Shown here: in pieces, positions 7,319-39,877 of the stretch
Numbering within the stretch: the first letter of the stretch is position 1
Layout of the letters: the number at the start of each line of letters is the position of its first letter
DNA from: a virus
Lineage: Duplodnaviria > Heunggongvirae > Uroviricota > Caudoviricetes
IMG/VR virus record: IMGVR_UViG_3300031087_000527
Span: 145,384 to 209,383 of that record
Reading direction: 5' to 3' (one strand)
DNA length: 64,000 bases
Position numbers and translations under genes: made by a program
Notes under the pieces: model-generated
The model's input: the letters and a program-made list of their open reading frames with translations, nothing else
The model's database searches: none
What the model was told of the DNA's origin: nothing

Positions 7319-7332
7319 AATAGGTGGTTATA

Positions 7333-7542
7333 ATGGTTATGCCATGCTGTAGTATGTGTTATCAAAAGTATCTCAATCAAGATGGGACATTAAATGAAGA
7401 AGGTCTTAATGCGATTTATGGTAAGAACGCCTATAAAATCATTGAGGATGCAGAAAGTAAAAAGGTCATCCAGAAAGGATTTCAAAAAATAAAGCTGTGC
7501 TCCTGTATTTGTCATACAGTGGGTATGAATGTGATGCATTAA
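7333..7542 (+). CDS. Cys-motif small protein (CSCICHTVGMN), shortest paralogue
   Basis: AGGTGG SD. ATG at 7333 within the track ORF 7324. Confidence 0.55.
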   Translation: MVMPCCSMCYQKYLNQDGTLNEEGLNAIYGKNAYKIIEDAESKKVIQKGFQKIKLCSCICHTVGMNVMH

Positions 7543-7562
7543 TAAAAAGGTGCGAGAATAAT

Positions 7563-7886
7563 ATGAACGATAACGATGATTTGATTTCTGAAAAATATCT
7601 TGAAGCAGCTAAGAAAACCCTGACCGATGAAGAGGCGCTTGCTTTTGCGAAAAAGTTTAATATGACAAACTTTTCGCTCAATCCCAAAAATCTTAAGATT
7701 CGCATAAAAGCCTCAAGTCTTTCCTGTCCATTATGCCAGGGTAAAAATATTGAAGTGTATCGAATCAAAATAAGAGGCCATTACCAGGGAGACAGTCAGA
7801 ATATAGCACCTAAGATGAAGTGTCTGGATTGTGATGTCTGCTCTACTGTGTGGGGAGTGGCCCTTGCTGACCACTACTGTATTTAA
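7563..7886 (+). CDS. putative zinc-ribbon protein (107 aa)
   Basis: AAGGTG SD. CPLCQGK...CLDCDVC four-Cys arrangement. Confidence 0.6.
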   Translation: MNDNDDLISEKYLEAAKKTLTDEEALAFAKKFNMTNFSLNPKNLKIRIKASSLSCPLCQGKNIEVYRIKIRGHYQGDSQNIAPKMKCLDCDVCSTVWGVALADHYCI

Positions 7887-8005
7887 TACCTAAAATAACT
7901 CCTCGCCTCGGCGGGGATTTTCTATGGCTATGAAAAGGTTGTGCATGATCGTGCTTTGTTGTATAATGGCTATCTACTCTAATCAGAAAAGAAGGCGAAA
8001 GCTAA

Positions 8006-8401
8006 ATGGATATGATTGAAATCAGTGACATTAACGTTGATGTGGATGTGATTGACCGCATTAAGTTTAGAAAAGATAGCTATGTATCAGGTATGCTGTG
8101 CCGCAATGTGAGCTATCGTCATGCTGGCTTTATGTCATGGCTTGCGGTAAGAGTTATGGAGCTTTACAATAAAGCTGAAGCTAAATCGTTTGAAGTGAAT
8201 GACAATGCTATGGCCTCACGTGAGGACGCTCTCGATCTGAAAGCGCATACCAATGCGTTTATTGCTGAAATGAGAGAGTCTGGTATTCCTGCAGATGTTA
8301 TTTCGCATATGGAAAATGCATTGAATCGCGGTATTGCTATTATTGAAGCAAATCACAAAGCATGGAAAGAATCACTGACTAAAAAAGAGGCTCAGGCATG
8401 A
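8006..8401 (+). CDS. hypothetical protein (131 aa)
   Basis: SD AAGGCGAAAG. Overlaps the next gene by ATGA. Confidence 0.7.
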   Translation: MDMIEISDINVDVDVIDRIKFRKDSYVSGMLCRNVSYRHAGFMSWLAVRVMELYNKAEAKSFEVNDNAMASREDALDLKAHTNAFIAEMRESGIPADVISHMENALNRGIAIIEANHKAWKESLTKKEAQA

Positions 8402-8715
8402 TTGTTCAAAAGTTAATCTATAACGAAAAGCTGACACAGTTCTTCAAGAACTTCTTTGCGGGTGCGGTTAAGGCTGCCTACGTTTCATTCACTGAAGATG
8501 CAGGTGAAAGCGATGATGATCTGAGAAAAGAAAGCCAGAGAATTACAGATGAGCTGTCAAATATCAATCTTAGCCTTCCTATAAACGCCGTGGATTTTAA
8601 ATCGGTGATTGTCCTGGATATTTCAGGTGAATTGGTTGAGCTGACGATGGTGCATGAAGCAACGTCTATGATTTTTGCTAAAATTGATAAGGAAGATTGT
8701 ATTTTTATCAGTTAA
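8398..8715 (+). CDS. hypothetical protein (105 aa)
   Basis: Translationally coupled (ATGA overlap). Bidirectional terminator at about 8745. Confidence 0.7.
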   Translation: MIVQKLIYNEKLTQFFKNFFAGAVKAAYVSFTEDAGESDDDLRKESQRITDELSNINLSLPINAVDFKSVIVLDISGELVELTMVHEATSMIFAKIDKEDCIFIS

Positions 8716-8770
8716 AGGTTGATGACGTTTAGTGTATAAAGAACTCCTCTTGGTGAGGAGTTTTTCATTA

Positions 8771-9205
8771 TTACATTTTGAATTTACGCTGGAACTCTTC
8801 TTTTTGATTCAGGCTTCTTTTAATATCACTGATTACAGAGTTAGTTGGAACAATCCAGTCTCCCATAGAACCGATAGCATCATTTGTAACAACCAAATCT
8901 TTCATTACTTCAGCATACTTTGGTTGCGCTAAAAGTTTATCAACATTGCGCATCATATTTTCAAACTGTTCAGGGTATTTCTGCTCAGAAGGCGCATAAG
9001 GCGTGCCATGATCTCCCGGCTTATTTAAAATATAGGCAAGCTTAAAGCAGTCATATTTTTCGCCTTTACTGTCTATATAATCTTTTAGTAAATCGCCAAG
9101 ATTTTCAATAGGAATCGCTTCCTTCTTGAATAATTTCACTTGTTGCTCAAGCTCGGTTTTTTCTAAGTTTTTTTTGAAACTTTTTAATCTTTCTGAAAAG
9201 CTCAT
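8771..9205 (-). CDS. hypothetical protein (144 aa)
   Basis: Minus-strand ATG preceded by AAGGAAAT. Convergent with 8398..8715 across a shared hairpin. Confidence 0.7.
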   Translation of the reverse strand: MSFSERLKSFKKNLEKTELEQQVKLFKKEAIPIENLGDLLKDYIDSKGEKYDCFKLAYILNKPGDHGTPYAPSEQKYPEQFENMMRNVDKLLAQPKYAEVMKDLVVTNDAIGSMGDWIVPTNSVISDIKRSLNQKEEFQRKFKM

Positions 9206-9369
9206 TTTTTATTTCCTTAATGTAGTGTATAGTTACAATTTAAGAGCATTACAATATAAAGTAAAGCCATAGCTGAATGAAAAAAGAGTAATTCTGAGCG
9301 AGAAAATGAAGTATGGCTTAAAAAGTGCTTGCAATCGAGTTTCTGATTGGATAGAATGTTTTGTATAGC

Positions 9370-9444
9370 GTCCTGTTAGTTAAACGGATATAATCCCCTC
9401 CTCCTAAGAGGGAGTTGCAGGTTCGATTCCTGCACGGGACACCA
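9370..9444 (+). tRNA. tRNA-Arg (anticodon CCT)
   Basis: Acceptor GTCCTGT/ACGGGAC. D arm GTTA-AACGGATA-TAAT. Anticodon stem CCCTC/GAGGG with loop CTCCTAA. T arm GCAGG-TTCGATT-CCTGC. A-CCA. Confidence 0.8.
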
Positions 9445-9687
9445 CCGAGTGGTCTAATCAGCCACTAATCCTCCTCGGATGAAGAGAAGAGACGTGATTG
9501 TCTCAAGAGGCTTCTGGCAAGCAAGTTGTTTGCCCGGCATATAACCGTTAGAGATATCGTCTTGGTAGAGGCGTCAGTAAGAAGCGTGGAGAGGCTGTAT
9601 TAACTCTGTGAAGCGTGATTACCTACTGGATTAGCAGATCAGCCAGCATCGTATGACGCGGTGTGTGGGTTAAAGTGGCTAGTCAAT
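9445..9687 (+). ncRNA. 243-nt ORF-free spacer inside the tRNA cluster; candidate stable small RNA(s) or processing substrate
   Basis: No ORF longer than 40 codons on either strand. Nested hairpins occur immediately after the tRNA, such as CCGAG-GTGGtctaatcagCCAC-...-CTCGG. T4 tRNA clusters carry similar stable RNAs. Confidence 0.25.
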
Positions 9688-9762
9688 GATTTTTTAGCTC
9701 AACGGGTAGAGCATTGGCGGGAGAATCCGCTGACGACGTAGGTTCGAGTCCTGCAGAAATCA
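9688..9762 (+). tRNA. tRNA-like gene with 6-nt anticodon-region loop (GGCGG-GAGAAT-CCGCT); probably a pseudo-tRNA
   Basis: Acceptor GATTTTT/AGAAATC. D arm GCTC-AACGGGTA-GAGC. T arm GTAGG-TTCGAGT-CCTGC. No encoded CCA. Confidence 0.4.
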
Positions 9763-9892
9763 CCTGTTTTATTAGGTTGCGTCCGACAACGTGAGTGGAT
9801 GTGAAAGGTAATAGCACGTTTGGAGCGAAACCAGACTTTCCTATTATCGTTTAAGAGGTGGGCCGATACAACACCTAACCTGATAAGACTAT

Positions 9893-9968
9893 GCACTTGT
9901 AGCTCAGTTGGTAGAGCACTGGATTGAAGATCCGGGTGTCGGGGGTTCGAATCCCTCCGAGTGCACCA
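9893..9968 (+). tRNA. tRNA-Phe (anticodon GAA), second copy
   Basis: Acceptor GCACTTG/CGAGTGC. Same D arm and anticodon stem as 2962. Loop TTGAAGA. T arm GGGGG-TTCGAAT-CCCTC. A-CCA. Confidence 0.85.
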
Positions 9969-10095
9969 TTTTCTCTTCCTCTTATCATTTCAAAAATACC
10001 AATCTAATCTGAAAAGTCTTTACGATAACAATTTGATAAAAAATATTCAATATTGTAAGCTATTTTTAAATAATCATTAAATAGGCGAAACAAAT

Positions 10096-10314
10096 ATGAT
10101 CGTAAAAACTATATTTCTTATTTCTGTTTTTGGTGTTCATGGAAGCACTATTACAAACGTTCAGGTTATGCCTGATATGGCAACATGTAATACGGCGAAA
10201 GAGTTGGTTAATGATGTCAGCTATCAGCCAGAGAAACTGCGTGGTGAAGATTGGGGCAAATATATTTTTAAGCCACGTAAGATTGAATGTGTTGAAAAAG
10301 AAGTAAAGAAATAA
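10096..10314 (+). CDS. small secreted protein (72 aa, signal-peptide-like N-terminus)
   Basis: N-terminus MIVKTIFLISVFGVHGST is signal-peptide-like. Weak SD. Confidence 0.55.
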   Translation: MIVKTIFLISVFGVHGSTITNVQVMPDMATCNTAKELVNDVSYQPEKLRGEDWGKYIFKPRKIECVEKEVKK

Positions 10315-10356
10315 CTTAAATTATAAAAAATGGCTTATTTCGATAAGCCATTTTGC

Positions 10357-11310
10357 TTAATAAACATAATCAAGTTTAGGTTCTTCATGGAAAAGAGTTT
10401 CATAGTTTCTTTCTCGTGCTGATCTCACGAAGTGTTTCATCTTGTTGTAGTTAAATGGCTCTGTATACTCACGATCTTTGATTCGTTGAGATAATAATAA
10501 AGACTCGTTTCTATCCCAATAGGTATATTCAAGAGCATTTTTGCCAGTTTTATCAACCTGGTGAACATCTATTCCTGCGTTTACCAGCATTCTCGCTTTA
10601 TCAATATCAGCGCCAGCACCAAATAAGGCATTACGCCCCCACTCATCTATTTGATTGACATTAATACCTTTCTCAATCAGAGCGGTTAATAGCTGCAGGC
10701 TTCCATCTCTTTCATTACTATCTAAATAGAAAAGCATATTCCGCCCGTATTTATCTACCTGATGAATATTGATGCCATGCTCAACCAGAAATAAGCCTTT
10801 TTCTGCATCAAGAGTGAATAAACCATTACGTTGGGTTTTGGGGTTCACCTGATGTATATCGGCTCCATATTTAATATAAAGTTGGCCCATTTCTTTTTGA
10901 TTATCCAAGCAAAAAGATAGCTCATCAAAAACAGTCTGACCTTTTTTATTTTTCTGGTTAATGTTAATACCTTTCTCTAATAAATAGGTGGAGCTTTCAA
11001 TATTGGTGCTTTGGCTAAAAAGTGCATTTTCGCCATAGATATCAACATTATTAATGTCTGCACCATTTTCTATAAAGAGTTTTATTTTGGTTAACTCATC
11101 GGTTTTAGAAAATGGTGTAAATCCACTAGTTGTTCTGACATTAAAATCAAGAGGTTCAGGTTTGCCCAATCCCCATAGCGTTCTTTTTTGGCTTCTTTTA
11201 ATAATTTCTTCAGCGCTCGCATCAAACATAAAAATCTGATCTTCTCTCAGACCAGCAAACTCTCTGGCGCGGTTATCGAATACACGCATAACATCAGTTA
11301 GACTAAACAT
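10357..11310 (-). CDS. ankyrin-repeat protein (about 317 aa; the track ORF extends to 11343)
   Basis: Minus-strand ATG preceded by AAGGAGAT. At least six 33-aa repeats with the pattern G.(D/N)(I/V)(N/H)Q.D..G.N.LF. Confidence 0.8.
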   Translation of the reverse strand: MFSLTDVMRVFDNRAREFAGLREDQIFMFDASAEEIIKRSQKRTLWGLGKPEPLDFNVRTTSGFTPFSKTDELTKIKLFIENGADINNVDIYGENALFSQSTNIESSTYLLEKGININQKNKKGQTVFDELSFCLDNQKEMGQLYIKYGADIHQVNPKTQRNGLFTLDAEKGLFLVEHGINIHQVDKYGRNMLFYLDSNERDGSLQLLTALIEKGINVNQIDEWGRNALFGAGADIDKARMLVNAGIDVHQVDKTGKNALEYTYWDRNESLLLSQRIKDREYTEPFNYNKMKHFVRSARERNYETLFHEEPKLDYVY

Positions 11311-11435
11311 TGTAATCTCCTTTATTTTTCTAAACTGTATCATTTAGCAGAGGGTAAATCAAATTGACAACTATATAGATTTGCTATTTGAAAAGCATAA
11401 TGATATAGAGCGTAAATAATCGATGGAGAATAAAT

Positions 11436-11822
11436 ATGAGCCTTTTTAAACTTGTTTCAGTATTAGGAATCGCCTCATTGGTGTGTTTTGTTGGTAGTAA
11501 TGTATATTGGGATGGGAAGCAAAAAGAGTCAGCAAATAGAGTGATGAGTGCCTATATTGAGACTCATAAGAGTCAGATACTCAATCAGAAATCAACCGAT
11601 AGTCTGGCCTGTAATAAGCAAGAATGTCTGGCAAACTTCAGTTCATTAAAATCAGAAAATCTTCTGACGGAAAAAGATGAGCGTTTCTTTAAAGAAGGTC
11701 AGTATTACATTTTTAACAAGAAAGAAGATGGCACCATAGCTTATCGCATCATTAAAAGCAAAGATGAGGTTAAAGCCGATAGCGATGCGTTATCTTTGGT
11801 GGCTGTGCTGACAATCATGTAA
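11436..11822 (+). CDS. membrane-anchored protein (128 aa)
   Basis: GGAG SD. N-terminal TM/signal LVSVLGIASLVCFVG. Confidence 0.7.
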   Translation: MSLFKLVSVLGIASLVCFVGSNVYWDGKQKESANRVMSAYIETHKSQILNQKSTDSLACNKQECLANFSSLKSENLLTEKDERFFKEGQYYIFNKKEDGTIAYRIIKSKDEVKADSDALSLVAVLTIM

Positions 11823-11890
11823 TAGTCATTGATTGCGATAGCCCAAAGGTGTATAGTATAGAGCCATAAAACACAATAGACGAGGTTGAT

Positions 11891-12097
11891 ATGTTAGATC
11901 TGTGGGGAGAATGTGAGAGCGTGTTGGCTGATGAAAAAAGTAAAGATAAACGCAAGAAGCGCCAAGATGATTTGAGTAATGTCTCTCTTGATCTTGTTAG
12001 TTCGCCGGGATATGGTATGTCAGGTAAAGGCGCAGACTCAAACGCAACGCAAGCTATGATTGAAGATTATGCCTCAGATGAGTTGGATGGTTGGTAA
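11891..12097 (+). CDS. hypothetical acidic small protein (68 aa)
   Basis: GAGG SD. Bidirectional terminator 12120..12143 (AAAAGCGGCCTAGCCGCTTTTTTT). Confidence 0.5.
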   Translation: MLDLWGECESVLADEKSKDKRKKRQDDLSNVSLDLVSSPGYGMSGKGADSNATQAMIEDYASDELDGW

Positions 12098-12139
12098 ATC
12101 TTAATAAGTTATTAAATAAAAGCGGCCTAGCCGCTTTTT

Positions 12140-12607
12140 TTAACTTAAAGATAAAGATATTTTATATGTAGTCTTTTTATCTTTTGTGCAGCTTTTTAAG
12201 ATGCTAATAGTTTTATATGGATTATTATAAAATACAGTGCCTGCGGTGGACTCAACTAAACAGTTATTATTATTGTAATCTTTATAGTGAATATTGAAAT
12301 AAGTATTGTCTTTCTCAGGTGTGTTTGGGTTGCGGACCTGTGTGAAGGTGAAATATGTGCTATCAGAGTCTGTGTTTTTATCAAAAAAAGATCCATCGGT
12401 TGTTTCTTTTAAACTTGAGTCTTTTTGATCAAAATAAAAATAATGTTTTTTATTATCGTAAGGAACGTAAAAAGTATGGCTATATCCAATTCCCACGTCA
12501 GGCACAATGCTTAAATTTATTCTTTCATAAACAGGTGTTGCTGATAATACAGTGGAAGAAAATAATGATGCGGATAACAATAAACTGGTTAATATAATTC
12601 TATTCAT
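12140..12607 (-). CDS. secreted protein (155 aa, signal peptide, N/Y/T-rich)
   Basis: Minus-strand ATG preceded by AAGGAC. N-terminus MNRIILTSLLLSASLFSSTVLSA. Confidence 0.6.
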   Translation of the reverse strand: MNRIILTSLLLSASLFSSTVLSATPVYERINLSIVPDVGIGYSHTFYVPYDNKKHYFYFDQKDSSLKETTDGSFFDKNTDSDSTYFTFTQVRNPNTPEKDNTYFNIHYKDYNNNNCLVESTAGTVFYNNPYKTISILKSCTKDKKTTYKISLSLS

Positions 12608-12813
12608 ATTTGTCCTTTTAAAAGTAGTTTAAGTGTATAAAAATAGTATCAAATTTATGAAAAATGTAAATGCATTTAAAAGAGTAATGTTAAGATTTGA
12701 TAATGATTTAAGACAAGTCCTATAAGGTAAACTTAAACAAGATTAGTTTGATGAAAAATGTTTTAATCCATTGGAAAACATGATAAAGTATACGCACTTT
12801 TAAAGGAGATACT

Positions 12814-14718
12814 ATGACATATTCTGAACGTCTTAATGATATTGCAATCGTAAAGCTGGACACTGAAGGCTTCTCATCACTCGATAGCCGCACTAAACGT
12901 CTGGCTTATCATCTGTCAGAAGCGGGTATGTGGGGGAAAGTGATCGGGCTGACTCAGGGATCAAGCGCTAACCTTATCGTTATTCCTGCACTAATCCATA
13001 TGTATAAACATCTTGATAAAGAAACTGAAGCTTTTAAGCAGGTTCGTGATAGTTTATTTATGCTCTTTGCGCACGGTGGTCTTTATCATACCACAACAGG
13101 TGAAAAACTGACACTGCCTCTGGATAGTGAGCAATTTGATGTATTGTGTTCTAATGTTTACTGTTCATTAGCTGCCTTATCGATTGAAATATTTCTTTTT
13201 GAGAACGATACCTATAATCTACCTTTATACCGCACCGTTCAAAAAGACGGCGTAGATGTGGTTAAGCAGTCTGGTGTTAACTTCTATGCTGGCCTTACCA
13301 CCGAGGAAGTAATTGCTTTTCGCAAAGAAGCCTACCCGAAACATGATAATGATGAGATTCCACCTTACGGATTTAACGAGAAACTCCTAAAAAATCATCT
13401 CACGGGTGAGATTAAACGAGAAGTCATCTTCGCTGATGGTCTTTATGGTCGCTATGTTAAAGAAATCATTAAAGAGCTTAAGCTTGCTCTGAACTACACT
13501 GAAAATGAAAAACAACATGCCTCTATTGAGACACTGATTACCTTCTATGAGACGGGTGATGCTGCTGATTTTGATAAGCACTGTGTAGCGTGGACGCAAG
13601 ATCAGGATAGTTCGATTTATTTCGTAAATGGCTTGATTGAATCTTATAAAGATCCGCTAGGTGTGGCGTGTAACTTTGAGAGTTTGGTTGCGTTTAAAAA
13701 TCCAGCACAGACAGCTAAAGTGAAGCGTATCATTGATAATATCCAGTGGTTTGAGGATAATCTCCCGTTTGATAAGCGCTTTAAGAAAGATAAGGCTGTA
13801 GGGCTATCTGCGAGTTCTATCAATGTTATTTCTATGGCTGGAGAAACCTCTCCTGTGCTGCCTTTAGGGATTAACTTGCCTAACAGCGACTGGATTCGTA
13901 AAAAGTTTGGTTCTAAATCCGTTACGTTGTCTAACGTGGATTCCTCACGTAGTAGCTATGATGTGCCATTAACCAAAGCCTTGTATCTGGATAAATATCA
14001 GGATCTGATTAAGCGTTATGGCAATGAGACGGGCATCCTTCATACGGACTTGCATGAGATTGCTGGTCATGGTTCGGGCAAAGTGCTGGACGGCGTTAAC
14101 AGTGATGTTCTGTCTACGTATTACTCTGTCATTGAGGAATGCCGTGCGGATCTTGTGGCGCTTTACTATATCCCGGATGAGAAGCTAAAAGAGATTGGTG
14201 TGTTTGCTGAGGATGTCAATGTTCGCGATGCGGCAATGGCTAAGTATGTAGCGTATTTCACTAATGGCGCTATCGGTCAGTTGCGCCGTGTGCGTTTTGG
14301 CGCTGATCTGACACAAGCTCACTTCAGAAACCGCCAGGTTATCTCTACATGGTTGCTTGAAAAAGCGAAGCCTGAACAGATGGCGATGGTTGTGAAGGAT
14401 GGTCAGTATTTCATTGAAGTGAATGATCTGGATGGTGTTCGCGTTCTGGTTGGTCAGTTGCTGGCAGAGGTTCAGCGTATTAAATCGGAAGGCGATTTTA
14501 ACGCGGCTAAAGCCCTCGTAGAGACGTATGGCACCAAAGTTAATAGGTTGGTTCATAAAGAGGTGTTGGAGCGTGTGAGTGGCTTAGGATTGGCGACAGT
14601 GGTAGGCTTCATGACGCCGATTCTGACACCTAACGGCGATGATATTGTTATTGAATATCAGGAAGACTTCCTGACTCAGCAGATTGAGTTGTTTGAGAAA
14701 TATTTCCTGAAGAAATAA
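12814..14718 (+). CDS. dipeptidyl-peptidase III-like zinc metallopeptidase (MEROPS M49 family), 634 aa
   Basis: AAAGGAGAT SD. HEIAGHGSGK and EECRAD lie about 40 aa apart, matching the M49 signature pair HELLGHGSGK / EECRAE. Confidence 0.85.
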   Translation: MTYSERLNDIAIVKLDTEGFSSLDSRTKRLAYHLSEAGMWGKVIGLTQGSSANLIVIPALIHMYKHLDKETEAFKQVRDSLFMLFAHGGLYHTTTGEKLTLPLDSEQFDVLCSNVYCSLAALSIEIFLFENDTYNLPLYRTVQKDGVDVVKQSGVNFYAGLTTEEVIAFRKEAYPKHDNDEIPPYGFNEKLLKNHLTGEIKREVIFADGLYGRYVKEIIKELKLALNYTENEKQHASIETLITFYETGDAADFDKHCVAWTQDQDSSIYFVNGLIESYKDPLGVACNFESLVAFKNPAQTAKVKRIIDNIQWFEDNLPFDKRFKKDKAVGLSASSINVISMAGETSPVLPLGINLPNSDWIRKKFGSKSVTLSNVDSSRSSYDVPLTKALYLDKYQDLIKRYGNETGILHTDLHEIAGHGSGKVLDGVNSDVLSTYYSVIEECRADLVALYYIPDEKLKEIGVFAEDVNVRDAAMAKYVAYFTNGAIGQLRRVRFGADLTQAHFRNRQVISTWLLEKAKPEQMAMVVKDGQYFIEVNDLDGVRVLVGQLLAEVQRIKSEGDFNAAKALVETYGTKVNRLVHKEVLERVSGLGLATVVGFMTPILTPNGDDIVIEYQEDFLTQQIELFEKYFLKK

Positions 14719-14728
14719 GATACAGATT

Positions 14729-14750
14729 AAGCCTCTTCGGAGGCTTTTTG
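14729..14750 (+). terminator. rho-independent terminator (GCCTCTTCGGAGGC plus T-run)
   Basis: Identical 14-nt hairpin reused at 15261 and 39858. Confidence 0.7.
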
Positions 14751-14813
14751 TGCTTGCTTTACATGGTTGTTGTCGATATAATCGCGATAATCTTACTTTT
14801 AGGAATCATCATC

Positions 14814-15248
14814 ATGTTGGTAATCAATAAAGACGTGTCGAAAGTGAAAGCAATTGTGCAGAAACAGGCTGAGTATTTAAGAGGTTCAGCCAGTGATAAC
14901 TTCTTTCGTAAGAATCATTACTCGTTTTTTATGACTGATGAATATTTATGTGTATCTATGTTGATTGAGGAGCAGTGGTCAGGTTCTTGCTGGTCAGACG
15001 ATATGGATGAGCCAAAGTATTACGAAGAGAAAACCTCACTGGTCAAAAAAGCAATTCGTGTTTTACTATCTGCGATGCTGCCAAAGAAAAACAACGTTCA
15101 AATTGGTTCTTTGGTTGAGGATGTTTTCGAAAAAATGCGTCGAGATATGCATACTGAATACGGTTATTATGGCAACTACGAAACGACTAAGCGATACACT
15201 ATAAACATTTCGGATGTTTATGATTTATTAGGTGAGGAATTCACATAA
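14814..15248 (+). CDS. hypothetical protein (144 aa)
   Basis: The track ORF from 14748 overlaps the terminator and a TATAAT box. AGGAAT SD before the ATG at 14814. Confidence 0.6.
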   Translation: MLVINKDVSKVKAIVQKQAEYLRGSASDNFFRKNHYSFFMTDEYLCVSMLIEEQWSGSCWSDDMDEPKYYEEKTSLVKKAIRVLLSAMLPKKNNVQIGSLVEDVFEKMRRDMHTEYGYYGNYETTKRYTINISDVYDLLGEEFT

Positions 15249-15260
15249 CATCGAATAAAA

Positions 15261-15284
15261 AGCCTCTTCGGAGGCTTTTTATTT
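15261..15284 (+). terminator. rho-independent terminator (GCCTCTTCGGAGGC plus TTTTT)
   Basis: Same hairpin as 14729. Confidence 0.7.
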
Positions 15285-15352
15285 AATAAAAGAGTTGTTA
15301 TTGTTGTCATAAAATGGTATGATGGCTGTGTTATTTAAAGAGGGTTAAAGTG

Positions 15353-15475
15353 ATGACTGACGTAAAAGAGTTAGTGGCTAAGTTGTTAGAAGACGCAAAA
15401 CGTCTGCAGGAAGTTGAGCCTAATGCGGGAACGGCTAAGCGCATTGAAGAAGCTCAGGAATTTTTAAAATCATAA
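15353..15475 (+). CDS. small ORF (40 aa)
   Basis: AAGAGGG SD. Not in the ORF track because it is shorter than 60 aa. Translates MTDVKELVAKLLEDAKRLQEVEPNAGTAKRIEEAQEFLKS. Confidence 0.4.
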   Translation: MTDVKELVAKLLEDAKRLQEVEPNAGTAKRIEEAQEFLKS

Positions 15476-15512
15476 GCCCTGTAGGGTGAAACCAAATAAA
15501 AGAGGATTTAAC

Positions 15513-15653
15513 ATGTCGGATAATAAAGTAATGACTGAAAAAGAAGTGAACGAGCAATATCAGAAAGATGTTGCTGATTCTAAAAGCTACGGAGACGAAA
15601 TCCGTGCGCAAGTTCGTCGTGATACTGCACTTGAGAAACTGCGCTCAAAATAA
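15513..15653 (+). CDS. small ORF (46 aa)
   Basis: AAGAGGA SD. Translates MSDNKVMTEKEVNEQYQKDVADSKSYGDEIRAQVRRDTALEKLRSK. Confidence 0.45.
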   Translation: MSDNKVMTEKEVNEQYQKDVADSKSYGDEIRAQVRRDTALEKLRSK

Positions 15654-15684
15654 TATAAACTGAATATTCCCAGCCGAGGTGTGT

Positions 15685-15861
15685 ATGTTTTATGAAGGAA
15701 CTGGAGATTATGGTCCTCGCCGCACGGTAGAAGAGCAGAAAATCTATGATCGCTATTCAGAAGAGTCTGTAAAGGCCAAAACGTATGGTGAAGAGTATTG
15801 GGCTAAAGACCGTCGCGATCAGGCTCTGTCTCGTCTTCCATCCTATCAACGTTCTAAATAA
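15685..15861 (+). CDS. small ORF (58 aa)
   Basis: GAGGTG SD. ATG at 15685. Confidence 0.45.
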   Translation: MFYEGTGDYGPRRTVEEQKIYDRYSEESVKAKTYGEEYWAKDRRDQALSRLPSYQRSK

Positions 15862-15870
15862 GGTGAGATA

Positions 15871-16590
15871 ATGTCTGATATTGATGCAGTTCAAAATGTT
15901 CATGTGGCGAAATTCAAAGGCAATATTAATATGTATTGGCCTATGGAAAATGTAGCAATGGATAAAGTTGTGCGTAATGCGGGAAATAAAACATTGACGC
16001 CTGAGCATATTCTGCTTGGTGGTGGTGCGGGTGAGCATTCGGCGCTTGTTATTTATAGTGATGCGGTAGTGCTTCAGACACTGATTTATGACTCATTGTT
16101 TAATACGCCAGAGTCATGGGATGGTCATGATCTTGATGTGGTTGCGTTCTTTAAGAAAAATGAGCAGCTTCATGATAAGTATTCGTATGGCATTGAAAAC
16201 CCAATGTTCGATGCTATTCGTGGTAGTTGGAGTATGGACACAAATCAGTGGCCTTTACAATCATGGGCGAGCTTTATTGATAACCTTGATAAAGATGATT
16301 TACTGTCAGAAGACACTCCTGAGCGCGTAATGATCGATATGCTTGGCGTATTCGTTTTGGAGCAAATGCCGCTGGTATGCTTGGTGGACAACGATATTCG
16401 TGAGATGGCAGAGCTGTATCGTAATAATAAGGCATCGCTGCGTCCTTATATGAAGCAGGAATACATTGATAAACTGCTGAGCTATTTCACTGCGCCAGAG
16501 CGGGGAGAAATGTGTGGAACAATTCATGAAAATGGAGAGACGCGCTGGGGATACAACCTTTCTGCCTGGAAAAAAGATAATAATCAATAA
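15871..16590 (+). CDS. hypothetical protein (239 aa)
   Basis: AAGGTGAG SD 6 nt upstream. Confidence 0.8.
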   Translation: MSDIDAVQNVHVAKFKGNINMYWPMENVAMDKVVRNAGNKTLTPEHILLGGGAGEHSALVIYSDAVVLQTLIYDSLFNTPESWDGHDLDVVAFFKKNEQLHDKYSYGIENPMFDAIRGSWSMDTNQWPLQSWASFIDNLDKDDLLSEDTPERVMIDMLGVFVLEQMPLVCLVDNDIREMAELYRNNKASLRPYMKQEYIDKLLSYFTAPERGEMCGTIHENGETRWGYNLSAWKKDNNQ

Positions 16591-16635
16591 AAGGTATTGT
16601 GCATGATAAAGGAAGCTGCTATAGTGGCTTCATTG

Positions 16636-16852
16636 TCTTCTTAGCTCAGCGGTTAGAGCCGAGGCCGTAGATCACGGTGGTTGCGAGACGAGAAAATATC
16701 TACGTAAGCGATGCGTATCAGTTAAAGTCTGATAAGGCCCCAGCAGGAAGCCTTTAGCTCAATGGCAGAGCCGTGGCGGAGTTGTCCGTGGTCGTGTAGA
16801 TCCTCGTTTTAATAAGCAATGCGCACTGGTTCGAATCCAGTAGAGGACACCA
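16636..16852 (+). ncRNA. 217-nt composite tRNA-like locus: canonical tRNA 3' half whose acceptor partner lies 210 nt upstream, with two D-arm-like modules between
   Basis: 3' end ACTGG-TTCGAAT-CCAGT, AGAGGAC-A-CCA. The only complementary 5' acceptor, GTCTTCT, is at 16636. D-arm copies are TAGCTCAGCGGTTAGAGCC (16643) and TAGCTCAATGGCAGAGCC (16756). GTAGATC heptamer repeated. No standard anticodon arm. Confidence 0.4.
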
Positions 16853-16876
16853 TTATTTCGAAAAGGAAAAGCTGAT

Positions 16877-17134
16877 ATGAGCATGAAAGTTTCTGAATTT
16901 ATTGAATGGTTAAAAACACAGCCTCAAGATGCTGAGGTAATGGTAATTAGCCATACCAGTGGCTCAAGTTATTATGATCAAGGTGGAAATATTCAGGTCG
17001 TTGCCTTTAACCCTGAAGAGTCAGCGCCGGGCAAGTATGATCCTACATTTGAGATGGATGACTTTAGTGGAGATGGCTTTAAGAACTCGCAGTTCTATGG
17101 TCAGAAGCAACTTCTGCTTGGAAGTCATGAGTAA
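16877..17134 (+). CDS. hypothetical protein (85 aa)
   Basis: AAAGGAAAAG SD. Terminator GAAGGGACTACTTTTAGTAGTCCTTTTTTT follows. Confidence 0.7.
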   Translation: MSMKVSEFIEWLKTQPQDAEVMVISHTSGSSYYDQGGNIQVVAFNPEESAPGKYDPTFEMDDFSGDGFKNSQFYGQKQLLLGSHE

Positions 17135-17441
17135 GAGAAGAAGTTATGCGAAGGGACTACTTTTAGTAGTCCTTTTTTTATTTAAAAATCAAAAGCAGAA
17201 TATTATAATGAGCAATAAAAAAGTGCTGACGTGTGCTGACATTTTTGATTACGCAAGCCATTCTCATCATATGAAAGAAGTAAAAGAAAAGCGTGAATCG
17301 CTTAAAATTGAGTTCGCAAGTCTAGCTTGATTTCTACAGGATAAGATTATTCTAAAATAGAGGCAACATTTTGCTTGTGCATGATGTTGTCTTTTGCTAT
17401 ACTTTCTTCATAGAAAGTAATTATGATTAAAGAGGTTGGCG

Positions 17442-17657
17442 ATGTGTAAATCTTTCATGCTTTTTCTGATAAGTCTGTTATATATTATTGGTTTTTTTAA
17501 GCTGGTTGGTTTTCCTTTTGTGCCTTCAGTGGATCATAAAGGTTTAGAGATGCTGGCTTTTGTGTTCTACCTGTTCAGTGTTATTTATGCGGTCTTTTAT
17601 ATTGTGGTATCTCTGTTCACCTTTCGCGTGTCATCAGACGTTGAAGAAAAAAACTAA
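17442..17657 (+). CDS. small membrane protein (two TM helices)
   Basis: AAGAGG SD. Hydrophobic throughout. Confidence 0.55.
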   Translation: MCKSFMLFLISLLYIIGFFKLVGFPFVPSVDHKGLEMLAFVFYLFSVIYAVFYIVVSLFTFRVSSDVEEKN

Positions 17658-17668
17658 GAGGCTTCAAA

Positions 17669-18010
17669 ATGGATAAGTTTATCTCCCCATCAAAAGTTGT
17701 TATTGGTCAACCTCACGCGGCGGTATTTGCCCGTGGTGAGTTCTGCGATAAAGCAACTAACATTCAGTTTCAAGGTCTTAATGAAGAGCAAAAGCTTGCG
17801 GTTAAAGCTGCTGTTGTTTCATCAGATTGCCAAAATACAAAGCCATATATTCAAGGTGATTCCAATGATTGGCTTTTGATAGAGTTCTGGTCATCAGATA
17901 TGGTTGATGTGGCTCATGCCTGCGTTGTGCTTGCGAGAGTGGCAGGTTTGACTGAGGATCAGGTACCAGGCCTTTCTCATCCAGATTTTAAAGGCGTATT
18001 TGAAGTTTAA
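17669..18010 (+). CDS. hypothetical protein (113 aa)
   Basis: AAGAGG SD. Confidence 0.75.
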   Translation: MDKFISPSKVVIGQPHAAVFARGEFCDKATNIQFQGLNEEQKLAVKAAVVSSDCQNTKPYIQGDSNDWLLIEFWSSDMVDVAHACVVLARVAGLTEDQVPGLSHPDFKGVFEV

Positions 18011-18044
18011 ACATTTTTGACAACCACTTCTTCTAAGAGGATAT

Positions 18045-18557
18045 ATGGAAAACTCTTTATTTATTATTCAGCGTATTAATGGTTATGATTACGAAGGTGA
18101 AACCAAAACAATCATAGCGACACGTCATACGACGAAAAAAGCTATCGAAGAAGAAGTTGATCGTCTTAATAATTTCATGGATGGTGTAGAGATGCCAGAG
18201 CCAGGTAGTTCTTCATGGAACTATTTTGATTTTGAAGAGCTTTTTATATCGGCTGAGGGTGAGTATGAAAATTTTTTATTATCCAGCAAGAAAAATACTG
18301 TATTGAATATGGCTGGCTTAAAAAATGATATTAAACGTCGTTTTGATAAGACTTATTCTTATTACATGAGTGGCGAATATCGTTATTCAGATAAAACACT
18401 AGAGTCTTATCTGAAGGAGTCATATTCTCGCTTTCTTTCAGGTGACACGTATTTGTCAGACTTGTTGGATATTGCTGAGGAGCTTCAGCACAAAGGCTTT
18501 ATCAAGTCTGATGTGTCAGTGATCAGGGCATCGTTGTTTGTAGTTAAAGGCAAGTAA
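18045..18557 (+). CDS. hypothetical protein (170 aa)
   Basis: AAGAGGAT SD. Confidence 0.8.
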   Translation: MENSLFIIQRINGYDYEGETKTIIATRHTTKKAIEEEVDRLNNFMDGVEMPEPGSSSWNYFDFEELFISAEGEYENFLLSSKKNTVLNMAGLKNDIKRRFDKTYSYYMSGEYRYSDKTLESYLKESYSRFLSGDTYLSDLLDIAEELQHKGFIKSDVSVIRASLFVVKGK

Positions 18558-18638
18558 GTCCTTGTGAATGAGTAGAAATGCTCATTCACAATATATATAT
18601 AGCGTGATCAAAAAAACACGCGGTTGAACGAAAATAGC

Positions 18639-18677
18639 AAAAAAAGAGTTGTACTTAAAGATCCACTTTGCTATGAT
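18639..18677 (+). promoter_or_regulatory. sigma70-like promoter (A-tract, GAGTTGTACT, 17 nt, TATGAT)
   Basis: Conserved tRNA promoter motif upstream of tRNA-Arg(TCT). Confidence 0.6.
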
Positions 18678-18704
18678 TGTTTTATCGAGAGAGAACAATA
18701 TATT

Positions 18705-18781
18705 GCGTCCTTAGCTCAGCAGGATAGAGCAACGGCCTTCTAAGCCGTAGGTCATAGGTTCGAATCCTATAGGACGCGCCA
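18705..18781 (+). tRNA. tRNA-Arg (anticodon TCT)
   Basis: Acceptor GCGTCCT/AGGACGC. D arm GCTC-AGCAGGATA-GAGC. Anticodon stem ACGGC/GCCGT with loop CTTCTAA. T arm ATAGG-TTCGAAT-CCTAT. G-CCA. Confidence 0.9.
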
Positions 18782-18806
18782 CAAAAATAAATCTCACGAG
18801 GTCGAT

Positions 18807-19139
18807 ATGAAAATGTTTAAACGTTTTATTTTTGTGATGCTAATGGCATGTAGCTTTTCGAGCCTGGCTGACTATTATGAGTGTGATATTAGCAATGGCT
18901 CGGTAGGTTTTTGTGGATCGTGGGCGCAAGAAAAAAGTTATCCGGTTCAGGATCAGAGCGGAACATTTCATGACTGTGATATCAATAACGGGTCTGTGGG
19001 TTTCTGTGGTGGATGGAGCCAACGACAAAGTTTTCCGGTAAAGCAGTCAGATGGATCTTACAGTAAATGCGATATCAATAATGGCTCAGTGGGTTTCTGT
19101 GCTGGTTGGTATCAAGGCAAAGCATATATTCAAAAATAA
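18807..19139 (+). CDS. secreted small protein with three 35-aa Cys-pair repeats (CDInNGSVGFCgGW)
   Basis: Signal peptide MKMFKRFIFVMLMACSFSSLA. Internal triple repeat. Paralogue of 19194. Confidence 0.8.
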   Translation: MKMFKRFIFVMLMACSFSSLADYYECDISNGSVGFCGSWAQEKSYPVQDQSGTFHDCDINNGSVGFCGGWSQRQSFPVKQSDGSYSKCDINNGSVGFCAGWYQGKAYIQK

Positions 19140-19193
19140 AAAGTAAAGTCGGCTTTTGCCAAAAATTAATATAGTGATTCTTACGAGGCTGAA

Positions 19194-19526
19194 ATGGGAA
19201 TGTTTAAACGTTTTATATTAGTGATGTTAATGGCATGTAGTTTTTCAAGTTTTGCTGATTATTATGAATGCCAACTTGTGAGCGGTAGGCCTACTTCATG
19301 TGGCTCATGGGCAGATGCTCAAAACTATCCAGTGAAGCAAGAAGATGGTTTTTATAAGGATTGTAGCATTACGAGTGGAAGTGCGTCGATGTGTAGTGGC
19401 TGGAGTGATCGGGATACATTTCCTGTAAAAGATGATAGCGGTTTTTATCAAACTTGTTCACTGGTAAGTGGCAGGGCGACTACATGTAGCGGTTGGTATG
19501 ATGGTAAGGCTATTGTTGAACCATAA
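19194..19526 (+). CDS. secreted small protein, paralogue of 18807 (three Cys-pair repeats)
   Basis: Signal peptide MGMFKRFILVMLMACSFSSFA. Repeats C.L.SGR.T.C.GW. Confidence 0.8.
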   Translation: MGMFKRFILVMLMACSFSSFADYYECQLVSGRPTSCGSWADAQNYPVKQEDGFYKDCSITSGSASMCSGWSDRDTFPVKDDSGFYQTCSLVSGRATTCSGWYDGKAIVEP

Positions 19527-19529
19527 AAA

Positions 19530-19571
19530 GTAAAAAAAGCTGTTGTACTGAAAGAAAATAGTAGGTATAAT
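19530..19571 (+). promoter_or_regulatory. sigma70-like promoter (A-tract, CTGTTGTACT, 17 nt, TATAAT)
   Basis: Upstream of tRNA-Met. Confidence 0.6.
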
Positions 19572-19584
19572 AGCTTTACAAAAC

Positions 19585-19660
19585 GGCCCCTTAGCTCAGT
19601 GGTTAGAGCAGGCGACTCATAATCGCTTGGTCGCTGGTTCAAGTCCAGCAGGGGCCACCA
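19585..19660 (+). tRNA. tRNA-Met (anticodon CAT; elongator type, or Ile2 if lysidinylated)
   Basis: Acceptor GGCCCCT/AGGGGCC with G1-C72 paired. D arm GCTC-AGTGGTTA-GAGC. Anticodon stem GGCGA/TCGCT with loop CTCATAA. T arm GCTGG-TTCAAGT-CCAGC. A-CCA. Confidence 0.85.
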
Positions 19661-19755
19661 GCATTCATACTCTCTTTGAATGTATTTGATTGAAAGGTTT
19701 TTTACTGCTATAAAAGTTTGTTTAATAAAAAGGAAGCCACGAACTTCCTTTTCAT

Positions 19756-19842
19756 GCCTCAGTGGTGAAATAGGTAGACACAAGAGATTCAAAATCTCTC
19801 GCCTTCACGGGCGTACCAGTTCGATTCTGGTCTGAGGCACCA
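19756..19842 (+). tRNA. tRNA-Leu (anticodon CAA, type II)
   Basis: Acceptor GCCTCAG/CTGAGGC. D arm GTG-AAATAGGTAGA-CAC. Anticodon stem AGAGA/TCTCT with loop TTCAAAA. 15-nt variable hairpin. T arm ACCAG-TTCGATT-CTGGT. Preceded by the hairpin GGAAGCCACGAACTTCC plus TTTT. Confidence 0.85.
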
Positions 19843-19860
19843 ATAAAAGAGGGAAATACT

Positions 19861-20253
19861 ATGTTAACCCAAGAAAATGTAGCATTGATTCATAAAGCGA
19901 TTCCGTTATATGCTGAAAAAGTAAGGCTGGAGTCTGATATTGTTAGTGTGATGATTGATGATTCTGTGGAGCTTAAAGAGCGTGCGGAGCAGAATCAGAG
20001 AGTGCTTAAGGTGATTGCTCAAAAAGTGAATATCGCCTTTGAGAACCACGAAAGACCTCAGCTTGAAGGTCGTGAGCGCGTTCTGCTTATCGGAATGATG
20101 AGTTTTCTGATCAGAGAGATTGAAGCGCGTCAGATGATAAACGTAGCAGGTCATGACAATGTTGTTGCGGATGTTTTCAATCAAAAGATCGAGCGGAAGA
20201 TTAAAGAAATCAGAGGAATGATGGCTGATTTCAAAAAAGAAAAAATTTTATAA
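19861..20253 (+). CDS. hypothetical protein (130 aa)
   Basis: AAAGAGGGAAA SD. Confidence 0.8.
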   Translation: MLTQENVALIHKAIPLYAEKVRLESDIVSVMIDDSVELKERAEQNQRVLKVIAQKVNIAFENHERPQLEGRERVLLIGMMSFLIREIEARQMINVAGHDNVVADVFNQKIERKIKEIRGMMADFKKEKIL

Positions 20254-39592: not shown

Positions 39593-39857
39593 TATACTGA
39601 AATCTATTAAGTCAGATCAGGTGTTTAATATGCAAAAGGTGAAATGTGTAGAGTCAGGCAATAAGAAATATGAAATGGTTTTAGAATACGGAGAAACCTT
39701 AAACACGATTTCTTTGTCGGTATCAGAAAAAGGCGAGCAAGTAGTTCGTTACCTGAATCAGTTTTTGAGAAATGTGTCGGATACTGATGTGTTTAAAACC
39801 ATGTTGAAACATAACTTAGGCGAAGCGGAGAGTGCTGAGCTTATCGGTCAAATCTAA
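39585..39857 (+). CDS. hypothetical protein (90 aa)
   Basis: Translationally coupled ATG inside the GTG-initiated track ORF 39537. Confidence 0.55.
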   Translation: MPDILKSIKSDQVFNMQKVKCVESGNKKYEMVLEYGETLNTISLSVSEKGEQVVRYLNQFLRNVSDTDVFKTMLKHNLGEAESAELIGQI

Positions 39858-39877
39858 GCCTCTTCGGAGGCTTTTTT
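39858..39877 (+). terminator. rho-independent terminator (GCCTCTTCGGAGGC plus TTTTTT), third identical copy
   Basis: Same hairpin as 14729 and 15261. Abuts the 3' end of the minus-strand ferredoxin gene. Confidence 0.65.

What the first reader, a model, noticed from the sequence alone, without database searches (positions are those of the whole stretch)
12814..14718. Dipeptidyl-peptidase III (M49) homologue in a phage
The 634-aa ORF carries both hallmark M49 motifs, HEIAGHGSGK and EECRAD, at the canonical spacing. This family is mainly eukaryotic and Bacteroidetes, and a cytosolic zinc exopeptidase is unusual phage cargo. It is followed by two reuses of an identical terminator hairpin.
Basis: partly seen in the sequence, partly recalled or inferred. 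Interest (0 to 1): 0.6.

Follow-up and report, generated by a model that had tools for sequence, protein, structure and literature searches.

The report
Jumbo-phage dipeptidyl-peptidase III (M49) gene
An uncultured jumbo phage carries an intact, conserved copy of the zinc enzyme dipeptidyl-peptidase III, which is almost unknown in viruses; it is a new carrier for a well-known enzyme, most likely used to break down short peptides in the infected cell.

Summary
ORF 12814-14718(+) encodes a 634-aa protein with HEIAGH (414-419) and EECRAD (441-446), and the hairpin AAGCCTCTTCGGAGGCTTTTT occurs at 14729 and 15260, plus a third copy at 39856.

Every sequence and fold test puts the protein in family M49:
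- Pfam PF03571, E=1e-55.
- A full-length match to Bacteroides thetaiotaomicron DPP III (5NA7), E=2e-125.
- All five conserved M49 regions, the zinc ligands, the catalytic Glu and six of the ten listed substrate-contact residues are kept.
- The AF2 model (pLDDT 90) superposes on 5NA8 at TM 0.92.

The replicon is best read as an uncultured jumbo myovirus. Evidence: 12 tRNAs, 20 PHROG families, neighbours homologous only to phage genes (CBB/GAP32/KVP40), and a syntenic 341.6-kb IMG/VR contig.

The gene is fixed in this lineage. It keeps the same position, terminator and ribosome-binding site in relatives only 73% identical, and dN/dS is 0.08-0.09.

M49 is effectively absent from known phages. The one hit among 50,697 records is a Bacteroidales fragment, and PHROGs and BFVD give nothing.

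The nearest relatives (55-67%) sit in uncultured AT-rich Proteobacteria, not Bacteroidota (33-39%).

The role is inferred: peptide-to-dipeptide turnover during infection. This is a new member of a known kind, of moderate interest.

The parts
12814..14718 (+). Gene for a 634-aa M49 dipeptidyl-peptidase III homologue with no signal peptide. Zinc ligands are H414, H419 and E442, and the catalytic Glu is E415. The five M49 regions are R1 273-292, R2 352-375, R3 414-424, R4 441-446 and R5 501-510.
12802..12808 (+). Shine-Dalgarno sequence AAAGGAG, 5 nt before the ATG. It is conserved in the orthologous loci L004, L016 and L022.
12760..12789 (+). Candidate promoter: a GTTTTAAT (-35-like) box, a 17-nt spacer and an extended -10-like TGATAAAGT. 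Both boxes are conserved in L004 and L016. The function is inferred only; the consensus scan did not score it.
14729..14749 (+). Intrinsic terminator hairpin (AAGCCTC-UUCG-GAGGCTT plus a T-run) that ends the M49 transcription unit. It is base-identical in orthologous loci whose M49 is only 73% identical.
14754..14782 (+). Sigma-70-type promoter of the next unit (TTGCTT-N17-TATAAT), conserved in position in L004 and L016. It implies the downstream ORF really starts at the ATG at 14814 (144 aa), not at the TTG at 14748.
15260..15280 (+). Second identical copy of the terminator hairpin, after the downstream small membrane-protein ORF (ends at 15248).
39856..39876 (+). Third identical copy of the same hairpin, between convergent ORFs (39537-39854 on + and the ferredoxin-like 39879-40115 on -).

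Best explanation
The ORF is a true, very probably active member of metallopeptidase family M49 (dipeptidyl-peptidase III). It is encoded as a stable accessory gene of an uncultured jumbo myovirus lineage distantly related to the CBB/GAP32/Rak2-type and KVP40-type phages. The host is probably an enterobacterium such as Serratia. The gene forms its own small transcription unit: conserved promoter-like boxes, a strong ribosome-binding site and a conserved intrinsic terminator. The product has no signal peptide, so it is a cytoplasmic two-lobed zinc enzyme. Inferred mechanism: as in characterised DPP IIIs, the two lobes close over an oligopeptide of roughly 3-10 residues. Zn2+ held by H414, H419 and E442, together with the general base E415, hydrolyses the second peptide bond and releases N-terminal dipeptides. 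In the infected cell this would speed the last steps of peptide breakdown and feed amino acids into the very large protein synthesis programme of a jumbo phage. Shown here: family membership, intact active site, predicted fold, conservation and purifying selection, rarity in phages, and phage context. Inferred: enzymatic activity, timing of expression, host, and above all the physiological role. The confidence of 0.6 combines about 0.9 for 'an active M49 enzyme carried by a phage' with about 0.45 for the amino-acid recycling role.
For: Family membership:
- Pfam PF03571, E=1e-55, 189.6 bits against a cut-off of 21.
- phmmer against PDB gives BtDPP III 5NA7 at E=2.4e-125 over residues 5-628, followed by the human, yeast, fungal, Caldithrix and Corallococcus DPP IIIs.
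- All five M49 regions defined in PMC5667867 are present. H414, E415, H419, E442, E276, Y278, N354, N357, D431 and H503 align with Bt H448, E449, H453, E476, E307, Y309, N385, N388, D465 and H533.
- The AF2 model has pLDDT 90 and pTM 0.90. Its best structural match is the closed BtDPP III 5NA8, TM 0.92-0.93, rmsd 2.5-2.7 A.

Selection and conservation:
- dN/dS is 0.08-0.09 at dS 0.45-0.53 against the 88%-identical orthologue in L022. Of the 46 amino-acid changes, only two conservative ones (N287S, V509I) fall within the five conserved regions.
- The gene sits at the same syntenic position in L004 and L016 (73% amino-acid identity, dS saturated), with an identical terminator and a conserved SD.

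Phage context:
- The window has 12 tRNAs, and 79 of 99 ORFs lie on one strand.
- 20 PHROG families match against only 9 Pfam families.
- Neighbouring genes have homologues only in phages, especially the jumbo myoviruses CBB, GAP32, BF and KVP40.
- The syntenic relative is a 341,648-bp IMG/VR viral contig.
- The gene's GC content lies within the range of the window's genes, rank 6 of 71.

Host hint: the 93%-identical protein WP_282994823.1 lies on a syntenic 130.9-kb contig that was binned into a Serratia MAG from a cultured gut sub-community.
Against: - No enzymatic, expression or host data exist.
- No hallmark structural or replication gene lies in the window or within 10 kb of either end. 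The viral assignment therefore rests on neighbour homology and on IMG/VR's classification of a relative.
- The recycling role is a generic inference. Nothing in the gene neighbourhood (orphans, an Ank protein, small membrane proteins) ties the enzyme to amino-acid metabolism.
- The upstream promoter is not a canonical sigma-70 match, so expression timing is unknown.
- The Serratia link comes from reference-based binning and could be wrong.
Confidence: 0.6

Rival explanations
1. The phage DPP III has a specific target rather than a bulk role. It would destroy a short bioactive peptide of the host or of competing phages, such as a peptide quorum or death signal, a peptide toxin, a defence-system messenger, or the small peptides released by prohead maturation.
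For: DPP III enzymes act only on short oligopeptides and are best known in animals for inactivating signalling peptides (PMC4824452 and PMC7535908, as listed). The gene sits in a region of host-interaction-type accessory genes: an Ank-repeat protein, pilin-like proteins, an MCP-signalling protein and a GmrSD_N protein. Purifying selection is strong.
Against: There is no association with any known defence or anti-defence family (PADLOC gave no hit for the gene or its immediate neighbours other than the Ank protein). No candidate peptide substrate is encoded nearby. The idea is untested and not suggested by any conserved gene pairing, since the flanking genes are separate transcription units.
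Confidence: 0.15
2. The contig is not a phage but part of a bacterial genome or a giant plasmid-like element, so the M49 gene is ordinary cellular cargo.
For: RefSeq lists a 93%-identical copy under Serratia sp. Se-RSBMAAmG. Identical or near-identical copies lie on contigs of up to 553-866 kb. No hallmark virion gene was seen within the 84 kb examined. The sister genes are chromosomal in Mb-scale bacterial contigs.
Against: The 'Serratia' record is a binned MAG contig that is syntenic with the window. The window is 37% GC. The window carries scattered duplicated tRNA genes, about 80% of ORFs on one strand and very few Pfam hits, yet 20 PHROG families match. Neighbouring genes match only phage genomes. 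IMG/VR holds a syntenic 341.6-kb viral contig.
Confidence: 0.07
3. The gene is a recently captured passenger or a pseudoenzyme with no catalytic role in the phage.
For: Jumbo phages carry many sporadic host-derived genes. The gene is slightly more GC-rich than the window mean (43% against 37%).
Against: The gene is conserved at the same locus across relatives whose synonymous sites are saturated. dN/dS is 0.08-0.09. Every zinc, catalytic and key substrate-binding residue is kept in all lineage members. Its composition is not an outlier (rank 6 of 71).
Confidence: 0.05

Closest known systems
Bacteroides thetaiotaomicron DPP III (BtDPP III; PDB 5NA6/5NA7/5NA8; MEROPS family M49)
   Same: Full-length collinear alignment (37% identity, E=2.4e-125). 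The HEXXGH and EEXRAD motifs have the identical short 'bacterial' 21-residue spacer. All five conserved regions are present. The predicted two-lobe fold matches (TM 0.92 to the closed form). The Asp equivalent to Bt D465 / human D496, which governs the Arg-Arg-arylamide preference, is kept as D431.
   Different: The phage protein is only 37% identical and about 40 residues shorter at the N-terminus; a related Weeksellaceae enzyme carries a lipoprotein-type leader there. Motif 1 is HEIAGH (no Cys) where Bt has HECLGH, and motif 2 is EECRAD (Cys, as in mammalian EECRAE) where Bt has EEARAD. Bt T380, I382 and Y627 correspond to L, L and V. The phage enzyme is encoded by a phage rather than a gut bacterium.
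Unnamed M49 subfamily in uncultured AT-rich Proteobacteria (for example P0059 on GCA_040384245.1 contig JAWVHA010000002.1, and P0016, P0030, P0032, P0045)
   Same: These are 55-67% identical over the full length, with the same N-terminus (M-x-YSER...DI.I), the same length and the same motif spacing. In the distance tree the phage clade is nested inside this subfamily.
   Different: These copies sit in bacterial contexts: LuxR, HD-GYP, SCPU, rhomboid and DotM_C genes with many Ank proteins, on contigs of up to 2.2 Mb at 25-35% GC. They share no synteny with the phage and carry EE(A/S)RAD instead of EECRAD. This is the probable donor pool. The organisms could not be named.
Eukaryotic DPP III (human DPP3, yeast Dpp3)
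   Same: Same family, fold, zinc ligands and catalytic Glu/His.
   Different: About 20-22% identity. The eukaryotic enzymes have a long loop of about 50 residues between the two zinc motifs (with the ETGE Keap1-binding motif in mammals) that is absent here.
CBB / GAP32 / BF / Rak2-type and KVP40-type jumbo myoviruses
   Same: Several accessory genes in the window have their only homologues in these phages, at 32-38% identity. Genome scale (about 340 kb for the IMG/VR relative), low GC and tRNA clusters are shared features.
   Different: There is no DNA-level similarity, and none of these phages encodes an M49 protein.

Membership tests
Peptidase family M49 (dipeptidyl-peptidase III) | Hexapeptide zinc-binding motif HEXXGH (region 3) | tested here: met
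   H414-E-I-A-G-H419 aligns with Bt H448-ECLG-H453 and is invariant in 43 subfamily members. The motif definition is from PMC5667867.
Peptidase family M49 (dipeptidyl-peptidase III) | Second zinc motif EEXR(K)AE(D), 22-55 residues C-terminal to the first | tested here: met
   E441-E442-C-R-A-D446. The spacer is identical to BtDPP III (21 intervening residues). E442 aligns with the zinc ligand E476.
Peptidase family M49 (dipeptidyl-peptidase III) | All five conserved sequence regions (R1-R5) | tested here: met
   R1 GLIESYKDPLGVACNFESLV 273-292, R2 GINLPNSDWIRKKFGSKSVTLSNV 352-375, R3 414-424, R4 441-446 and R5 QAHFRNRQVI 501-510, compared with the Bt regions listed in PMC5667867.
Peptidase family M49 (dipeptidyl-peptidase III) | Profile match above the curated threshold | tested here: met
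   PF03571 at 189.6 bits against a gathering cut-off of 21, E=1e-55. There is no NCBIfam model hit.
Peptidase family M49 (dipeptidyl-peptidase III) | Two-lobe fold with the catalytic cleft between the lobes | tested here: met
   The AF2 model (pLDDT 90, pTM 0.90) matches 5NA8 at TM 0.92-0.93, and all the top 17 PDB matches are DPP IIIs. This is a prediction, not an experimental structure.
Peptidase family M49 (dipeptidyl-peptidase III) | Zn-dependent release of N-terminal dipeptides from oligopeptides (EC 3.4.14.4) | not testable with these tools
   This needs purified protein and an Arg-Arg-2-naphthylamide or oligopeptide assay, with and without chelator.
Jumbo tailed phage (Caudoviricetes, genome above 200 kb) | Virion and packaging hallmark genes (major capsid, portal, large terminase, tail sheath) on the same replicon | not tested
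   None lies in the window or within 10 kb beyond its ends. The rest of the 294-kb contig could not be read with the tools. There is only a weak small-terminase PHROG hit, E=1.5e-6.
Jumbo tailed phage (Caudoviricetes, genome above 200 kb) | Gene content shared with known phages and classification as viral | tested here: met
   20 PHROG families match. Neighbouring genes have homologues only in phage genomes (97 and 53 records). The syntenic relative IMGVR_UViG_3300011202_000010 is 341,648 bp.

The most novel reading that the evidence does not exclude
The phage DPP III is a targeted counter-measure. It would be made in the infected cell to destroy a specific short host peptide (a peptide alarm, quorum or toxin signal, or a defence messenger). 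That would make it the first phage exopeptidase used for peptide-signal interference, borrowed from intracellular Proteobacteria.
Probability: 0.1. Interest if true: 0.7.

Novelty: new member of a known kind. Interest (0 to 1): 0.35.

Why it matters
DPP III is a well-studied enzyme family with no described viral members. Here it is a fixed, selected gene in a lineage of uncultured jumbo phages, which adds terminal peptide catabolism to the list of host-like functions that large phages bring with them. The gene also exposes a large unnamed M49 subfamily in uncultured AT-rich Proteobacteria, and it flags a RefSeq 'Serratia' protein (WP_282994823.1) that is really phage-encoded. It does not overturn any concept. 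Its value is as a testable example of phage-driven peptide and amino-acid recycling, or possibly of peptide-signal interference.

Tried and rejected
1. DNA-level searches of 4 kb and 24 kb of the window against 50,697 phage records gave no match, so the phage could not be named.
2. NCBIfam, PHROGs and PADLOC gave no hit for the protein.
4. I tried to name the donor lineage through neighbours of the sister genes.
   - The RNase II-like neighbour in L006 is itself an orphan, with 11 hits and none named.
   - The HD-GYP neighbour in L019 only reaches about 50% identity to named Betaproteobacteria.
   - A literature search for the assembly accession found nothing.
   - I considered that the Mb-scale AT-rich contigs might be giant viruses. 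Bacterial signalling and Dot/Icm-type genes in other sister loci (LuxR, HD-GYP, SCPU in L019; DotM_C in L021), and a response regulator and CheX in L006 itself, argue against this. It was not tested directly for the 2.2-Mb L008 contig.
5. I looked for hallmark phage genes just outside the window and found none.
6. The consensus promoter scan was not enriched over shuffles, so the upstream promoter rests only on conservation.
7. dN/dS against the 73% and 60-65% relatives is unreliable because dS is saturated. It was replaced by the L022 comparison.
8. The single 'phage' record with M49 (MT836480.1) was rejected as a Bacteroidales fragment.
9. Literature searches for M49 or DPP III in phages or viruses found nothing relevant.

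Full report
**Observation.** The ORF 12814-14718 (+) exists as described: ATG start, 634 codons, preceded by AAAGGAG five bases upstream. HEIAGH occupies residues 414-419 and EECRAD residues 441-446. The 21-nt string AAGCCTCTTCGGAGGCTTTTT occurs at 14729, 10 nt after the stop codon, and at 15260, after the next small ORF. No copy appeared in 100 shuffles. Each copy folds as a GC-rich stem with a UUCG loop followed by a U-run.

**What the protein is.**
- Pfam gives a single family, Peptidase_M49, at E=1e-55 and 189.6 bits against a cut-off of 21.
- Against all PDB sequences the best match is B. thetaiotaomicron DPP III (5NA7). It scores E=2.4e-125 and is collinear from residue 5 to 628. The human, yeast, Armillariella, Caldithrix and Corallococcus DPP IIIs follow.
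- The BtDPP III structure paper (PMC5667867) defines the family by five conserved regions. It names the zinc ligands (H448, H453, E476), the catalytic E449 and the substrate-contacting residues.
- In the HMMER alignment and in my own alignments these correspond to H414, H419, E442 and E415, and to E276, Y278, N354, N357, D431 and H503 of the phage protein. All are conserved. All five regions are recognisable at 273-292, 352-375, 414-424, 441-446 and 501-510.
- The spacer between the two zinc motifs is the short bacterial type, identical in length to Bt.
- An AlphaFold2 model built on 43 homologues has pLDDT 90 and pTM 0.90. [quoted passage not shown] The 17 best PDB matches are all DPP IIIs.
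- There is no N-terminal signal sequence, whereas a Weeksellaceae homologue has a lipoprotein-type leader.
- Every sequence- or fold-level membership criterion is met. Activity itself cannot be tested here.

**What the replicon is.**
- The window has no DNA-level match in 50,697 deposited phage genomes.
- It carries 12 scattered tRNA genes with duplicates.
- 79 of 99 ORFs lie on one strand, with 83% coding density.
- Only 9 Pfam families match, against 20 PHROG families, nearly all of unknown function.
- Sigma-70-type promoters sit 27-38 nt upstream of many ORFs.
- Two neighbouring genes (27431-28423 and 28550-29737) have homologues only in phage genomes. These are most prominently the jumbo myoviruses CBB, GAP32, BF, the Erwinia and Yersinia relatives, and the KVP40 group, at 32-38% identity.
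- The exact protein lies on a 294,057-bp metagenomic contig.
- A 73%-identical orthologue lies on a 341,648-bp IMG/VR viral contig (L016) and on a 164.7-kb contig (L004). Both are syntenic with the window over a dozen or more flanking genes.
- A 93%-identical copy is in RefSeq as a 'Serratia sp. Se-RSBMAAmG' protein. That record is a MAG binned from a cultured weevil-gut sub-community (PMC10665472). Its 130.9-kb contig is syntenic with the window. It is therefore a phage contig binned with its probable host.
- No hallmark virion gene lies in the window or within 10 kb beyond it. The phage assignment is therefore strong but indirect.

**Is the gene a fixed, functional part of the phage?**
- Against the L022 orthologue (88% nucleotide identity) there are 222 nucleotide changes but only 46 amino-acid changes. 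This gives dN/dS of 0.08-0.09 at dS 0.45-0.53. Only two conservative changes (N287S, V509I) fall within the five conserved regions.
- Against the 73% orthologues dS is saturated. Even so, the gene keeps the same position, the SD sequence and an upstream pair of boxes (GTTTTAAT, 17 nt, TGnTAAAGT).
- The terminator hairpin is base-for-base identical in those orthologues. It is followed by a positionally conserved TTGnnn-N17-TATAAT promoter for the next unit.
- The gene's GC (43%) and GC3 are within the spread of the window's genes, rank 6 of 71.
- This is a long-resident, selected, monocistronic gene, not a recent passenger.

**How unusual is it in viruses?**
- tblastn against 50,697 phage records found one hit, MT836480.1, an UNVERIFIED 10-kb human-faecal contig. 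Its other genes are a BACON/LRR surface protein, IspD, a PNP-oxidase-like protein, an M23 peptidase and a DDE transposase. It is a Bacteroidales chromosomal fragment.
- PHROGs has no M49 family. BFVD has no structural match.
- Two pattern-based scans of IMG/VR found only four M49 loci: the syntenic relative L016, two giant-virus-MAG contigs and one 4-kb fragment. These scans are pattern-limited and not exhaustive.
- The held literature has nothing on viral M49.

**Origin.**
- All 120 best hits in the 5.8-billion-protein collection are 52-100% identical and unnamed apart from the mis-binned Serratia record.
- A neighbour-joining tree, rough and without support values, nests the phage clade (window, L022, P0002-P0014, L016) inside this subfamily. 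Bacteroidota-type enzymes sit on a long branch outside it. Named homologues are all Bacteroidota at 33-39% identity.
- The 55-67% tier lies on AT-rich (25-35% GC) contigs of up to 1.9-2.2 Mb. These are full of orphans and Ank-repeat proteins. Their neighbours include LuxR, HD-GYP, SCPU, rhomboid, a response regulator, CheX and a DotM_C protein.
- The HD-GYP neighbour's nearest named relatives are Betaproteobacteria at about 50% identity.
- The likely donor pool is therefore uncultured, probably host-associated Proteobacteria. I could not name it.

**Mechanism and role.** By homology, the enzyme should close its two lobes on a short oligopeptide and release N-terminal dipeptides, using the H414/H419/E442-bound zinc and E415. 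Retention of D431 (Bt D465, human D496) predicts activity on Arg-Arg-arylamide. The most economical role is acceleration of terminal peptide catabolism to supply amino acids during a large phage's replication. A targeted role against a specific peptide signal or toxin is possible but unsupported, since there is no PADLOC link and no conserved partner gene.

**Verdict.** This is a new member of a known enzyme family in an unusual carrier. It is moderately interesting, and the open question is its physiological role.

Noticed in passing
window 9688-9764 (+); L004 5894-5970: A tRNA-like gene that ARAGORN reads with a 4-base anticodon (agaa in the window, aggg in L004). It is conserved in position between tRNA-Arg(CCT) and tRNA-Phe(GAA), and the two phages show compensatory changes in the acceptor and anticodon stems. 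It could be a quadruplet-decoding or otherwise unusual tRNA.
   Followed up: partly
window 2693-21955: Twelve tRNA genes are scattered among small ORFs, with duplicates (2x Phe-GAA, 2x Arg-TCT). The related phage locus L004 also has an amber-suppressor-type tRNA(CTA) at 2707-2781, as does the bacterial sister locus L006 at 6981-7055.
   Followed up: no
window 55182-61830 (+), plus 61977-63947: Six tandem ORFs of 350-368 aa, apparently paralogous by their uniform size and tandem order (not compared with one another), are followed by a 656-aa ORF. None has a Pfam or PHROG match, and the array is conserved on other contigs (L009, L010).
   Followed up: no
window 29917-31377 (+); L011 8183-9826; L022 5135-6271: TnpB/IS605-OrfB (Cas12f1-like TNB domain) genes occur at different places in closely related phage genomes, which suggests active IS200/IS605-type elements in this lineage.
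   Followed up: no
window 24756-25820 (-), 40602-41162 (+), 10357-11343 (-), and elsewhere: Unusual accessory cargo: an MCP-signalling-domain protein (phrog_8572), type IV pilin-like proteins (PilS/bundlin, several copies in relatives), an ankyrin-repeat protein, and SPFH/Band7, GmrSD_N and 2Fe-2S ferredoxin proteins.
   Followed up: no
L022 1-475 (GCA_030024225.1 JASEWL010000016.1): The phage contig binned into the 'Serratia sp. Se-RSBMAAmG' MAG encodes an 882-aa Cas3-like helicase-nuclease (Cas3_HD, DEAD, ResIII, Cas3-like_C). RefSeq protein WP_282994823.1 from this contig is labelled as a Serratia protein but is phage-encoded.
   Followed up: partly
contigs carrying the identical or >=90% identical M49 protein: Contig lengths are 130,884; 259,989; 294,057; 458,248; 552,876 and 866,249 bp, against 341,648 bp for the IMG/VR relative. 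In sample ERZ27247428 the window's right end is also on a second contig of 186,829 bp. The true genome size is unresolved: these could be concatemers, strain mixtures or a very large genome.
   Followed up: no
L006, L007, L008, L019, L020, L021: The sister M49 genes lie in AT-rich (25-35% GC), orphan- and ankyrin-rich bacterial contigs of up to 2.2 Mb. They carry DotM_C, LuxR, HD-GYP, SCPU and clusters of phage-type integrases. An RNase II-like protein there has only 11 detectable homologues in 5.8 billion proteins. This looks like an uncharacterised, probably intracellular proteobacterial lineage.
   Followed up: partly
L015 (MT836480.1): This GenBank record, 'UNVERIFIED: Bacteriophage sp.', is by gene content a Bacteroidales chromosomal fragment (BACON/LRR protein, IspD, PNPOx, M23 peptidase, DDE transposase, M49) and not a phage.
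   Followed up: yes
L017, L018 (IMG/VR GVMAG-M-3300006056-32 and GVMAG-S-3300006056-154): Two short contigs from giant-virus MAG bins encode M49 proteins 35-45% identical to the phage enzyme (L017 is about 51% identical to Bacteroidota types). Whether they are truly viral or binning contaminants was not examined.
   Followed up: no
window intergenic regions, e.g. 5627, 7939, 20261, 33375: A recurrent promoter-like motif, TTGTGCA(T)-N-TA(T/A)AAT, lies 27-38 nt upstream of many + strand ORFs. The general pattern TTGnnn-N16-18-TAnAAT is about 4-fold enriched in intergenic DNA. This suggests a shared promoter class recognised by host RNA polymerase.
   Followed up: partly
window 14748-15248 (+): The mechanically listed TTG start at 14748 overlaps the terminator and the promoter. 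The conserved promoter (14754-14782) and the 144-aa call in L022 suggest the real start is the ATG at 14814. The product has an N-terminal transmembrane segment and no family match.
   Followed up: partly
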